A stretch of 64,000 nt of DNA, from positions 28,706 through 92,705 of the forward strand of contig JAKPNH010000007.1 of assembly GCA_029548485.1 (NCBI GenBank), written 5' to 3'. The position numbers were made by a program, and so were the translations under genes. This DNA is from a bacterium. Its GTDB lineage: Bacteria; Patescibacteriota; Minisyncoccia; UBA6257; Colwellbacteraceae. The notes beneath the pieces are model-generated. The model saw only the letters and a list, made by a program, of their open reading frames with translations, did not search any database and was not told the DNA's origin. Shown here one piece after another: positions 22,954 through 24,468 of the stretch. Within the stretch, counting starts at the first letter, position 1, and each line of letters begins with the position of its first letter.

Positions 22954-23261
22954 AATAGAATGAAATAATCATAGCAAAAAAAGCGAGGGTTTTGAATCGG
23001 AAAAGGTTCTTTGACAAGTTTCTGCTTTCTCTTCTTTTTTCTTAGACGCTTTATTTGACGCCTAACCGACCATGTTCCAACATCTCAATCTCCTTTTATA
23101 AAAATCAGTCAGCGTTCAATGGATATTAAAAAGCCCTTATCGTAGACGTTGTGCTTTTGATGAATGCTGCTGCAAGGGACGATTTTGGATTAACCGAGGC
23201 GACCATCCCCTATCTTTGGCTAGATCCGGTCAAAGTCGCGTTTATTAATCGTCTTTGCTTA

Positions 23262-24468
23262 TGGCCATACATATATATGTGGCGGTCACCTGTCCGCCAC
23301 AGATGGCCGCAGAAGTCAAGGACATTTGGCCATCTCCGGTCATGGCCGGACAGCATGCATGACAGCCTCGAACTCACGGCCATGTGGCCGTCTTTGAAAC
23401 AAATTGATAGGCGGCCACATTGTAGAGAAGGCCACTATGCCAAATGGCCGGGAAAGACGTGTCCGGACACGCATCCGAATCAGCGTAAAACAGGTTCAGA
23501 AAATCGATCTGTCAATCTAGATCTACATAAATCGGCCTTCTTTAATATTTTGCGACACTGTTTACACAAAGTGTGAAACATCGATTTTCGGCAAAACCCA
23601 GTAGGCCGCATAAAATCTACATTTTCTTAAAAATCGATTTTTCGATGTTTCACGTGAAACATTTTGTTTACGCAAAATTGTTTCACAAACGTGTTTACAA
23701 TGTTTCACGTGAAACAATTGTGTCAAAAAACAGGTCGAAATTCCTATTTTTCGGCAAAAAAGTCGTTTTTTTATGTTTGCAATGTTTCACGTGAAACATT
23801 TACATCCAAAAACAGCTCGAATCAGATGTTTCACGTGAAACATCTGATTATTCTTCCAGACAAGGATGCTTGGCCGCGTTATTTTACCGCTGACTGCCAA
23901 ACTGAAGGACAACCCGGCCATGGCAACGGCCAAATTAGGACAAGGGGACGGTCATGGCCGTTTCGCATGAGACACTCTATGAGACGGCCATGACATGGAT
24001 GGCCGCCTGTCAGGATAGACGGCCATGCGGCCATGGCCGCATGGATTGGCCGAGTCGTTTCAAGCTCCGAAGCCTAATCGATCGGGTGTTTATAAGAAAT
24101 AAGCTATACTTAAATTATGAAGTTTTTAAGCGGGATAAAAGGAGATCAAAACAAGAAAATCACCTGTGGATATCTCGTGGACAACGCTTATAAAATATTC
24201 AATCAAGACTTTTGGCCGTCTTATAAAAAGATAGATATAATCACGATATTTCAAGGCCGGACACTTGTTTTGGTCACGGCCAAAACTATCCACAACTCGC
24301 GGCCAGACGGCCATGACCAGACCCGGCCATAATGCCATAAATGGCGGACAGAAAAACATGACATTCAGAATTCCGCATAATTAAAAGATAATTTGACTGC
24401 CAAAATATGGCCGGGTTAAAAAGAATATATGGCCGTGTCCGGAACCTGTCCGGATAGATCATGGCCAG
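23262..24468. repeat. dispersed GGCCAT-containing motif family flanking the AT-rich palindrome core
   Basis: GGTCATGGCCG occurs at 23338-23348 and 23950-23960, and inverted at 23984-23994 and 24308-24318. A 20-bp perfect palindrome CATGCGGCCATGGCCGCATG lies at 24024-24043. A 14-bp palindrome CGTGTCCGGACACG lies at 23458-23471. A direct repeat TGTCCGGA x2 lies at 24437-24456. There are many further ATGGCC/GGCCAT copies. Confidence 0.8.
23645..23848. repeat. cluster of four copies of the palindrome ATGTTTCACGTGAAACAT, one of them embedded in a 28-bp perfect palindrome
   Basis: Perfect 18-mers at 23645-23662 and 23782-23799. A 17/18 copy lies at 23700-23717. A 28-bp perfect palindrome ATCAGATGTTTCACGTGAAACATCTGAT lies at 23821-23848. 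Additional TGTTTAC/TGTTTCAC half-sites lie at 23558-23700. The central core is CACGTG. Confidence 0.9.

What the first reader, a model, noticed from the sequence alone, without database searches (positions are those of the whole stretch)
22954..24460. 1.5-kb non-coding region between the divergent pilin genes packed with perfect palindromes and motif repeats
The region holds copies of ATGTTTCACGTGAAACAT at 23645-23662, 23700-23717 (17/18) and 23782-23799, plus a copy embedded in a 28-bp perfect palindrome at 23821-23848. It also holds an imperfect variant TGTTTACACAAAGTGTGAAACA at 23559-23580 and several TGTTTAC/TGTTTCAC half-sites. These are flanked on both sides by GC-rich blocks full of GGCCAT motifs: GGTCATGGCCG occurs four times (two per orientation), with a 20-bp palindrome CATGCGGCCATGGCCGCATG at 24024-24043 and a 14-bp palindrome at 23458-23471. 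The spacing is irregular, so this is not CRISPR. ORFs predicted here are W/H/R-rich translations of the repeats. Possible roles are a multi-operator regulatory hub for the DGR target and the FReD-pilin (perhaps a CACGTG-core-binding dimeric regulator), a structured ncRNA, or an invertible or phase-variable promoter segment bounded by the inverted GGTCATGGCCG copies. None of these can be distinguished from sequence alone.
Basis: seen in the sequence. Interest (0 to 1): 0.75.

Follow-up and report, generated by a model that had tools for sequence, protein, structure and literature searches.

The report
Chromosome centromere (parS cluster) near origin
The repeated palindromes are four perfect copies of parS, the standard bacterial chromosome-segregation site, about 14 kb from the replication origin of a Candidatus Colwellbacteria genome; this part is ordinary biology, and only the GGCCAT-type motif arrays on either side of it remain unexplained.

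Summary
The 18-mers each contain a perfect 16-bp TGTTTCACGTGAAACA, the published consensus parS bound by chromosomal ParB. There are four copies in 200 bp (0.19 expected by chance), plus half-sites and a conserved split parS. The cluster lies about 14 kb from dnaA/dnaN, canonical DnaA boxes and the GC-skew minimum. It is conserved at the same syntenic position in four other lineages (4-5 perfect sites each), although the flanking genes differ. It is therefore the chromosome's centromere, not a pilin/DGR regulatory hub. I found no support for a non-coding RNA (ncRNA) or an invertible switch.

The region is not wholly non-coding: about 24114-24470 is a decayed UPF0102/YraN gene, intact in three relatives. 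I first read a block there as tandem DnaA boxes; it is that gene's CGYLVDN codons.

The GGCCAT blocks are arrays of an asymmetric motif, roughly aCA-TGGCC-R-t-s-T. TGGCCG occurs 23 times against 0.7 expected locally. The arrays flank parS in all five close lineages, are absent from more distant relatives, and occur nowhere else in about 82 kb of this genome. Individual sites turn over fast, but more slowly than neutral decay predicts. Their binder is unknown. No parA or parB was found in the DNA available.

The parts
23646..23661 (.). parS-1: perfect consensus TGTTTCACGTGAAACA
   Evidence: Consensus cited from bioRxiv 10.1101/724823 and PMC7053999. Invariant in alignment A1.
23701..23716 (.). 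parS-2: perfect consensus
23783..23798 (.). parS-3: perfect consensus
23820..23849 (.). 30-bp perfect palindrome containing parS-4 (23827-23842). Positions 23825-23844 are identical to the 20-bp parS oligo used for the ParB co-crystal structure.
   Evidence: (I12).
23665..23698 (+). Extra parS half-sites between parS-1 and parS-2: TGTTTAC at 23665, TGTTTCAC at 23679, TGTTTAC at 23692.
   Evidence: The half-site 7-mer GTTTCAC/GTGAAAC occurs 10-14 times per island against 9 times in about 100 kb of flanking DNA.
23480..23600 (.). Conserved AT-rich block with the split parS TGTTTACAC-AAA-GTGTGAAACA (23559-23580) and GTCGCAAAATATTAA on the minus strand. It is nearly invariant in five lineages, and part of it is recognisable at 41% HolA identity.
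   Evidence: L027 has a perfect split palindrome TGTTTCACAC-TTA-GTGTGAAACA.
23250..23472 (.). Array A: about 9 TGGCC(R) sites in both orientations, plus the TGTCCGGACA palindrome at 23458-23471. No coding ancestry detected.
23865..24060 (.). Array B: about 10 TGGCC(R) sites, including the 22-bp palindrome at 23023-24044 read as 24023-24044. Present only in the window and L011 lineages. Partly a diverged direct copy of array A.
   Evidence: (D5, D7).
24114..24470 (+). UPF0102/YraN-family pseudogene. The N-terminal part is my former 'Block 1'. The C-terminal part is array C (about 24205-24470, 9 TGGCC sites).
   Evidence: tblastn E=3.5e-26 against the intact L012 protein. In-frame stops, with GE->KK and VEVK->VTAK. 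Intact orthologues hit PF02021; the window remnant does not. Differences are spread evenly over codon positions in the window and L011 but concentrated at third positions in intact lineages.
18753..18768 (.). Outlying degenerate parS (AGTTTGACGTGAAACA, 2 mismatches) plus a half-site at about 18788, between tRNA-Ile and tRNA-Val downstream of ftsH. It is the orthologue of a perfect sixth parS in L012, L024 and L025.

Best explanation
The region is the centromere of this Candidatus Colwellbacteria chromosome.

Shown:
- Four perfect consensus parS sites, several half-sites and a conserved split parS lie in a 380-bp AT-rich core (34% GC).
- This core is about 14 kb from oriC.
- It is conserved at the same syntenic position in relatives, whatever the neighbouring genes are.

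Inferred from established ParABS biology:
- ParB dimers recognise each 16-bp palindrome through their helix-turn-helix domains, bind CTP, close into clamps and slide onto flanking DNA.
- The resulting partition complex is moved by ParA and usually loads SMC.
- Several closely spaced perfect sites give a high loading rate from one small locus.

The right-hand third of the 'non-coding' region is a dead UPF0102/YraN gene. This gene is the ancestral neighbour of the centromere in this family.

The GGCCAT blocks are a separate, younger layer. They are arrays of an asymmetric motif of about 12 bp (aCA-TGGCC-R-t-s-T, with a TGTCC variant) that flank the parS core on both sides in one subclade. My best guess (about 0.3, inferred) is that they are many redundant, individually weak sites for an accessory DNA-binding activity at the centromere. 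That could be a second DNA-binding module of ParB, as in P1 BoxB, or another protein that bounds or stabilises the partition complex. The main alternative is that they are functionless repeats.
For: parS identity:
- 4 perfect 16-mers against 0.19 expected.
- The consensus is published.

Origin proximity:
- dnaN is at 36854-37963 and dnaA at 38114-39472.
- Canonical DnaA boxes lie in the dnaA-dnaN spacer and upstream of dnaA.
- The site at 39540 fits the published BUS pattern.
- The cumulative GC-skew minimum is at about 26-37 kb.

Conservation:
- L011, L016 and L017 have 4 perfect parS each; L012, L024 and L025 have 5 plus 1.
- The flanking genes differ between lineages.
- Distant relatives keep degenerate or half-site parS next to UPF0102.
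- There is no similarity to plasmids or phages.

Arrays:
- Motif matrix.
- TGGCCG 23 against 0.7 and TGTCC 9 against 1.5 in local shuffles.
- The same cluster-parS-cluster layout in five lineages.
- Arrays found only here in about 82 kb of this genome.
- 8 of 30 sites retained against 2.3 expected under neutral decay, P=0.0014; motif columns 73% identical against 60% for non-motif columns, P=0.007.
Against: - No parA or parB gene is present in the window, in about 18 kb of extensions, or in any of the +/-10 kb relatives' loci. The cognate protein is therefore inferred, not shown.
- No paper in the library reports ParABS in Patescibacteria.
- Against a function for the arrays: positions are poorly conserved; the preferred sixth base drifts (G in the window and L011, A in L012); arrays are absent from relatives at about 40% HolA identity; there is no helical phasing; one array lies in a pseudogene; and array B looks like a duplication of array A. 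All of this is compatible with neutral repeat expansion.
Confidence: 0.85

Rival explanations
1. The GGCCAT/TGGCC arrays have no function of their own. They are leftovers of local duplication and slippage, plus the decay of the UPF0102 gene's low-complexity insert, tolerated in gene-poor DNA next to the centromere.
For: - Fast positional turnover, with drift from TGGCCG to TGGCCA.
- Absent from L027-L029.
- Array C lies in a pseudogene.
- Segments of array A and array B are diverged direct copies, and segments of arrays A and C are inverted copies (D5, D7, I3, I8).
- L024 has 2.7 tandem 21-nt units.
- No helical phasing.
Against: - Motif-specific enrichment is about 30-fold over local composition.
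- High density is maintained independently in five lineages on both sides of parS.
- Site retention exceeds neutral expectation (P=0.0014).
- Information extends beyond GGCC, to the T at +4 in all lineages.
- Arrays are stable among L011, L016 and L017.
Confidence: 0.35
2. Multi-operator transcriptional hub. A dimeric regulator binds the CACGTG-core palindromes to control the divergent DGR-target and FReD pilin genes.
For: The sites are palindromic and lie between divergent genes. ParB complexes can dampen nearby transcription in some plasmid systems (own knowledge).
Against: - The palindrome is the exact parS consensus.
- The block is conserved where neither pilin is present (L011 on the rpsT side, L024, L025).
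- The pilins and the DGR cassette are lineage-specific insertions beside an older element.
Confidence: 0.04
3. Invertible or phase-variable promoter segment bounded by the inverted GGTCATGGCCG-containing repeats.
For: Imperfect inverted repeats at 23290-23348 and 24308-24351 (82-83% match: I3, I8). A TATAAT hexamer lies at 24236-24241.
Against: - The window, L001 and L002 are 100% identical and in the same orientation. L011, L012, L016, L024 and L025 are collinear, and L017 is collinear as far as its contig reaches.
- No recombinase is adjacent; the nearest tyrosine recombinase is at 9653-10540.
- The TATAAT hexamer is made of codons of the UPF0102 (pseudo)gene.
- The inverted repeats are just motif copies in both orientations.
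Confidence: 0.03
4. Structured non-coding RNA encoded in the region.
For: Arrays A and B fold better than shuffles (z = -4.9 and -3.7).
Against: - No Rfam match even at E<=1.
- The low energies follow from a self-complementary motif present in both orientations.
- Paired sites are not positionally conserved.
- The conserved split-parS block shows a positive covariation term, and its pairs are mostly invariant.
Confidence: 0.03
5. Replication-related element: a second oriC or unwinding module, or a DnaA-box cluster that titrates DnaA.
For: TTGTCCACG-AG-ATATCCACA and CTATCCACA are close to the DnaA-box consensus. The same 20-mer occurs once in non-coding DNA of an unrelated genome, L018. oriC-proximal DnaA-box clusters are known in B. 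subtilis (PMC3245932).
Against: - These 9-mers are the antisense of the conserved CGYLVDN and IH codons of UPF0102.
- The DnaA-trio run is not conserved (5, 2 and 2 trios, with no GAT consensus).
- A better oriC with perfect boxes lies next to dnaA.
Confidence: 0.04

Closest known systems
Chromosomal ParABS centromere (parS sites bound by ParB/Spo0J), as in B. subtilis, C. crescentus, Corynebacterium and Myxococcus
   Same: Identical 16-bp consensus palindrome, multiple copies, origin-proximal location, and conservation across related genomes.
   Different: It is unusually compact: 4-5 perfect consensus sites within 200-270 bp (start-to-start spacing 44-99 bp), plus half-sites and a split site, rather than sites spread over kilobases (comparison from own knowledge). 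The cognate parAB genes are not next to it and were not found in the DNA available. It is from Patescibacteria, where no ParABS study was found in the library.
Plasmid P1 parS, a composite centromere with heptameric BoxA and hexameric BoxB (PMC10999674)
   Same: Two different short motif classes occur together at one centromere. One class resembles a parS half-site, and the other is a GC-rich hexamer (P1 BoxB is TCGCCA from memory, against TGGCCR here).
   Different: P1 has a fixed arrangement of a few boxes around an IHF site, and one ParB is known to read both. Here there are about 30 sites with variable positions and orientations, the binder is unknown, and the arrays are absent from more distant relatives.
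Iteron or heptad arrays of type Ib/II plasmid centromeres (omega/ParG/ParR-type; own knowledge)
   Same: Many short repeats in direct and inverted orientation near a partition site. L024 shows 21-nt tandem units.
   Different: Those repeats are contiguous and regularly spaced and are themselves the centromere. Here the spacing is irregular, there is no helical phasing, and a canonical parS cluster is already present.
oriC-proximal DnaA-box clusters of B. subtilis (PMC3245932)
   Same: DnaA-box-like 9-mers occur near oriC in a gene-poor stretch.
   Different: Here the boxes are explained by codons of a (pseudo)gene. No independent evidence for DnaA binding was found.

Membership tests
Chromosomal parS / ParABS centromere | 16-bp palindrome matching the consensus TGTTTCAC-GTGAAACA | tested here: met
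   4 perfect matches at 23646, 23701, 23783 and 23827. Consensus from 10.1101/724823.
Chromosomal parS / ParABS centromere | Location in the origin-proximal part of the chromosome | tested here: met
   About 14 kb from dnaN/dnaA and their DnaA boxes. The GC-skew minimum is within the window.
Chromosomal parS / ParABS centromere | Sites conserved in orthologous loci of related genomes | tested here: met
   4-6 perfect sites in L011, L012, L016, L017, L024 and L025. Degenerate or half-sites at the same position in L027-L029.
Chromosomal parS / ParABS centromere | Genome encodes a cognate ParB (ParBc domain plus HTH) and ParA | not testable with these tools
   None in the 64-kb window, in about 18 kb of extensions, or in the relatives' +/-10 kb loci. 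The rest of the genome could not be read.
Chromosomal parS / ParABS centromere | ParB binds the sites and spreads in a CTP-dependent way | not testable with these tools
   Needs biochemistry or ChIP.
P1-type composite centromere (BoxA + BoxB) | Two motif classes in a fixed arrangement read by one ParB | tested here: not met
   Two motif classes are present, but the positions and orientations of the second class are not conserved. The binder is unknown.
Invertible promoter switch (fim/hin-like) | Both orientations present, an adjacent site-specific recombinase, and flanking inverted repeats | tested here: not met
   Only weak inverted repeats. All assemblies are in one orientation. The nearest recombinase is 13 kb away. 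Read-level data were not available.
oriC basal unwinding system (DnaA-box pair + DnaA-trios; PMC8287927) | DnaA-box with at most 2 mismatches, optional tandem box, spacer of at most 16 bp, at least 3 NAN trios, conserved | tested here: not met
   The island has a box pair, but the trio run is 5, 2 and 2 across lineages with no GAT preference, and the boxes are codons. The pattern is met at 39540 upstream of dnaA.
Known RNA families (Rfam 15) | Covariance-model match | tested here: not met
   No meaningful match at E<=1 in 22500-25000. No covariation support.
UPF0102 / YraN family gene (PF02021) | Homology to the family and an intact reading frame with the PD-(D/E)xK residues | tested here: not met
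   Homology is clear (tblastn E=3.5e-26; orthologues hit PF02021). The frame has stops, and the GE and E-x-K residues are replaced. It is therefore a pseudogene, not a member in working order.

The most novel reading that the evidence does not exclude
In one Colwellbacteria subclade the chromosomal centromere has become composite. A canonical parS core is bracketed by arrays of a second, rapidly turning-over specific motif (TGGCC-R). This motif is read either by a second DNA-binding surface of ParB or by a new accessory centromere protein. The result would set the boundaries of ParB sliding or stabilise the partition complex, a chromosomal counterpart of P1 BoxB or of natural ParB roadblocks.
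Probability: 0.2. Interest if true: 0.6.

Novelty: new member of a known kind. Interest (0 to 1): 0.3.

Why it matters
It replaces an apparently exotic "palindrome-packed regulatory hub" with a standard explanation. It also places the centromere and oriC of an uncultivated Patescibacteria genome, and gives a clean, compact parS array that could be used to test ParB from this phylum. The library holds no study of ParABS in this phylum.

It also shows that the pilin and DGR genes are recent insertions beside an older chromosomal landmark. So the pilin and DGR genes' position next to the palindromes should not be read as regulation.

The only open point of wider interest is the second motif layer. 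If a protein binds it, this would be a natural example of an accessory or boundary element at a chromosomal centromere.

Tried and rejected
1. **DnaA-box cluster or second origin.** I initially read the invariant TTGTCCACGAGATATCCACA / TGTGGATAG / TATAAT block as a DnaA-regulated promoter and spent the single metagenome scan on it. L024 and L025 then showed it is the 5' half of a UPF0102 gene. Calibrated against holA and rpsT, its conservation is ordinary.
2. **BUS/unwinding module in the island.** The trio criterion is not conserved.
3. **ncRNA.** Rfam and covariation are both negative.
4. **Inversion.** All assemblies are collinear.
5. **Genome-wide repeat family (REP/MITE-like or DNA-uptake-sequence-like).** Arrays are found only at the island in about 82 kb of this genome and in the relatives' loci. 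ATGGCCGT occurs 6 times inside the island and 6 times outside.
6. **Simple GC-richness or a 4-bp methylation site.** GCGC and CGCG are not enriched, and the motif is asymmetric.
7. **Helical phasing of sites.** None found.
8. **Strain-level hypervariability.** None found.
9. **Arrays A and B as decayed neighbouring genes.** No tblastn signal.
10. **Plasmid or phage origin of the parS block.** No match.
11. **Finding parA/parB by walking outward from both window ends.** Not found.
12. **Literature on ParABS in Patescibacteria, CPR or Parcubacteria.** Nothing relevant.
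Full report
**Observation.** Each 18-mer copy carries a perfect 16-bp TGTTTCACGTGAAACA, at 23646, 23701, 23783 and 23827. 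That is four perfect hits where 0.19 hits with up to three mismatches are expected. Small corrections are needed. The palindrome around the fourth copy is 30 bp (23820-23849), and the GC-rich palindrome is 22 bp (24023-24044). GGTCATGGCCG occurs exactly three times, not four. GGCCAT is strongly concentrated here, with 19 of the window's 87 copies.

**What the palindromes are.** TGTTTCAC-GTGAAACA is the published consensus parS, the site bound by chromosomal ParB (bioRxiv 10.1101/724823; PMC7053999). Window 23825-23844 is identical to the 20-bp oligo used for the ParB-parS co-crystal. The genomic setting fits. dnaN (36854-37963) and dnaA (38114-39472) lie about 14 kb away. Canonical DnaA boxes (TGTGGATAA) sit in the dnaA-dnaN spacer and upstream of dnaA. 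The site at 39540 fits the published DnaA-box-pair plus trio pattern (PMC8287927). The cumulative GC skew reaches its minimum inside the window. So the cluster is origin-proximal, as chromosomal parS sites normally are.

**Organism and relatives.** The neighbouring HolA is identical to a protein of a Candidatus Colwellbacteria MAG. Gene content is typical of Patescibacteria. The same organism appears in several metagenomes. Two of those contigs span the region and are 100% identical to it in the same orientation.

| Loci | Similarity to window | parS content |
|---|---|---|
| L011, L016, L017 | Fpg 88% | 4 perfect parS |
| L012 | Fpg 73% | 5 perfect + 1 outlying |
| L024, L025 | HolA 66% and 69% | 5 perfect + 1 outlying |

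The outlying site lies next to tRNA genes and ftsH. The window's two-mismatch copy at 18753, between tRNA-Ile and tRNA-Val, is its decayed orthologue. The genes flanking the cluster differ between lineages:
- window: two pilins and a DGR cassette;
- L011: rpsT and a deaminase;
- L012: one pilin and a 173-aa ORF;
- L024 and L025: UPF0102 and a small ORF, with no pilins.

The element therefore predates the pilin genes and is independent of them. This removes the "pilin/DGR regulatory hub" reading. At about 40% HolA identity (L027-L029), synteny still holds and the position next to UPF0102 still carries parS-like DNA. There it takes the form of half-sites, degenerate sites and a perfect split palindrome, TGTTTCACAC-TTA-GTGTGAAACA. 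The window's "imperfect variant" at 23559-23580 belongs to a block that is nearly invariant in five lineages. Part of that block is still recognisable in L028.

**A correction to my own first reading.** Alignment of three lineages showed an almost invariant block at about 24160-24300 containing TTGTCCACG-AG-ATATCCACA, CTATCCACA and a TATAAT hexamer. I took this for a DnaA-box cluster around a promoter and spent the single metagenome scan on it. The L024 and L025 contexts showed that it is the 5' half of a UPF0102/YraN-family gene on the window's plus strand. The gene is intact in L012, L024 and L025 (PF02021, E = 7e-18 and 6e-16). In the window and L011 it is a pseudogene:
- it has in-frame stops;
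- both copies share GE->KK;
- VEVK has become VTAK in the window and VMVK in L011;
- the remnant no longer hits Pfam, yet tblastn against the intact L012 protein gives E = 3.5e-26.

The "boxes" are the antisense of the CGYLVDN codons. Calibrated against holA and rpsT, the block's conservation is unremarkable. Substitutions are concentrated at third codon positions in the intact lineages but are evenly spread in the two dead copies. One loose end remains: the same 20-mer occurs once in non-coding DNA of an unrelated genome, L018. So about 350 bp of the "non-coding" region is a decayed gene, and I found no independent evidence for DnaA binding.

**The GGCCAT blocks.** Oriented consistently, the roughly 30 GGCC sites read (A/T)TGGCC(G/A). 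The position matrix is a-y-A-TGGCC-R-t-s-T, and the T at +4 is kept in all lineages. TGTCC is an interchangeable variant at aligned positions. The enrichment is motif-specific. Against dinucleotide shuffles of the arrays themselves, TGGCCG occurs 23 times against 0.7 expected, while GCGC and CGCG are not enriched. ATGGCCG[TG] is about 54 times denser inside the region than outside.

There are three arrays in the window:
- A (23250-23472), to the left of parS;
- B (23865-24060), between parS and the pseudogene, present only in the window and L011 lineages;
- C (about 24205-24470), inside the pseudogene.

In the intact genes the equivalent of array C lies in a low-complexity insert of about 25 aa (…PGQMAMSQPGQN…). 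The 121-aa UPF0102 proteins of distant relatives lack this insert.

All five close lineages show the same layout, TGGCC cluster, parS core, TGGCC cluster. No such cluster occurs elsewhere in about 82 kb of this genome or in the relatives' flanks, and L027-L029 have none. Individual sites turn over quickly: only 8 of 30 are identical between the window and L011. That is still more than the 2.3 expected from the 60% identity of the surrounding array DNA (P = 0.0014). Motif columns are 73% identical against 60% for non-motif columns (P = 0.007). L012 prefers TGGCCA over TGGCCG. L024 has 2.7 tandem 21-nt units. There is no helical phasing and no strain-level variability among L011, L016 and L017. 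Arrays A and B have no detectable coding ancestry. Parts of A and B are diverged direct copies, and parts of A and C are diverged inverted copies.

**Mechanism.** The core claim has confidence of about 0.85. This is the chromosomal centromere, where ParB dimers load at four tightly spaced perfect parS sites, helped by half-sites and the split site. They then form the partition complex that ParA segregates. The sequence identity, the origin proximity and the conservation are shown. ParB binding and CTP-dependent sliding are inferred from the family's established behaviour.

For the arrays I commit to a weaker inference (about 0.3). They are redundant low-affinity sites for an accessory DNA-binding activity at the centromere. 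The closest precedent is P1 parS, where one ParB reads heptameric BoxA and hexameric BoxB (PMC10999674). An alternative role is as a bound barrier that confines ParB sliding. The main rival (about 0.35) is that they are neutral products of local duplication and gene decay.

**Rivals tested and found wanting.**
- Structured ncRNA: there is no Rfam hit at E<=1. The arrays' low folding energies (z = -4.9 and -3.7) follow from a self-complementary motif present in both orientations. The conserved block shows a positive covariation term.
- Invertible segment: all assemblies are collinear, and no recombinase is adjacent.
- Second origin: see the correction above.
- Mobile-element origin of the parS block: no similarity to any plasmid or phage record.

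**Limits.** No parA or parB gene was found in the window, in about 18 kb of extensions, or in any relative's +/-10 kb locus, and I could not read the rest of the genome. The library holds no paper on ParABS in Patescibacteria. Inversion was tested only at the level of consensus assemblies.

**Verdict.** I rate it a new member of a known kind, with interest 0.3. The flanking TGGCC-R arrays are a genuine, lineage-specific and unexplained feature that would raise the interest if a binder were found.

Noticed in passing
window 37964-38113 and 39473-39700: The canonical oriC flanks dnaA. There are DnaA boxes (TGTGGATAA perfect at 38051 and 39540, plus near-matches) in AT-rich spacers. The site upstream of dnaA has a perfect box, a tandem second box and four NAN trios, fitting the published BUS pattern.
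   Followed up: partly
window 18845-22953: DGR cassette: reverse transcriptase (19678-20673), bAvd accessory protein (21059-21400) and a target pilin with an FGE-sulfatase/C-type-lectin-like domain (21469-22953). It is absent from L011, L012, L024 and L025, so it is a lineage-specific insertion beside the centromere. Two JGI contigs from one sample (Ga0116243_10000057 and _10001421) break inside the target gene at about 21.5-21.7 kb, as expected if the variable repeat is heterogeneous.
   Followed up: no
window 18650-18724 and 18839-18912: tRNA-Ile(tat) and tRNA-Val(tac) bracket the degenerate sixth parS. The mechanical ORF at 18845-19744 (minus strand) overlaps tRNA-Val at its end, so its annotation is doubtful.
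   Followed up: partly
L012 13310-13744, L024 9103-9537, L025 5937-6371 (versus L027 11372-11737): UPF0102/YraN proteins of this subclade carry a low-complexity insert of about 25 aa (…PGQMAMSQPGQN…) after the VEVK strand. The insert is encoded by TGGCC-rich DNA and is missing from the 121-aa proteins of distant relatives. A DNA-level motif array seems to have been tolerated inside, or imposed on, a coding sequence.
   Followed up: partly
L018 4308-4327: The 20-mer TTGTCCACGAGATATCCACA (two DnaA-box-like 9-mers, 2 bp apart) occurs in non-coding, AT-rich DNA downstream of a radA-like ORF in an unrelated metagenomic contig. The overlapping 148-aa ORF is not a UPF0102 homologue. This could be chance or a genuine DnaA-box pair.
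   Followed up: partly
window 23500-23650 and 24078 (also in L011, L012, L024, L025): ATCGAT palindromes, often as AAAATCGATTTT, are about 4-fold enriched in the islands and are partly conserved next to parS and the split parS. Their role is unknown.
   Followed up: no
window 41203-48715: A cluster typical of CPR type-IV-secretion or conjugation-like systems: an M23 peptidase with a T4SS_pilin domain, a TraG/VirB4-like ATPase (42423-44738), a PrgI-family protein, and large ORFs with no Pfam match.
   Followed up: no
L028 17771-20801: The gyrA of this distant relative is interrupted by an intein with a LAGLIDADG endonuclease domain (1250-aa product).
   Followed up: no
window 24461-24512: The FReD-pilin ORF probably starts at the ATG near 24512, not at 24461. 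One public gene call is 422 aa rather than 439, and the N-methylation motif begins at residue 39. If so, the gene-free stretch extends about 50 bp further right.
   Followed up: no
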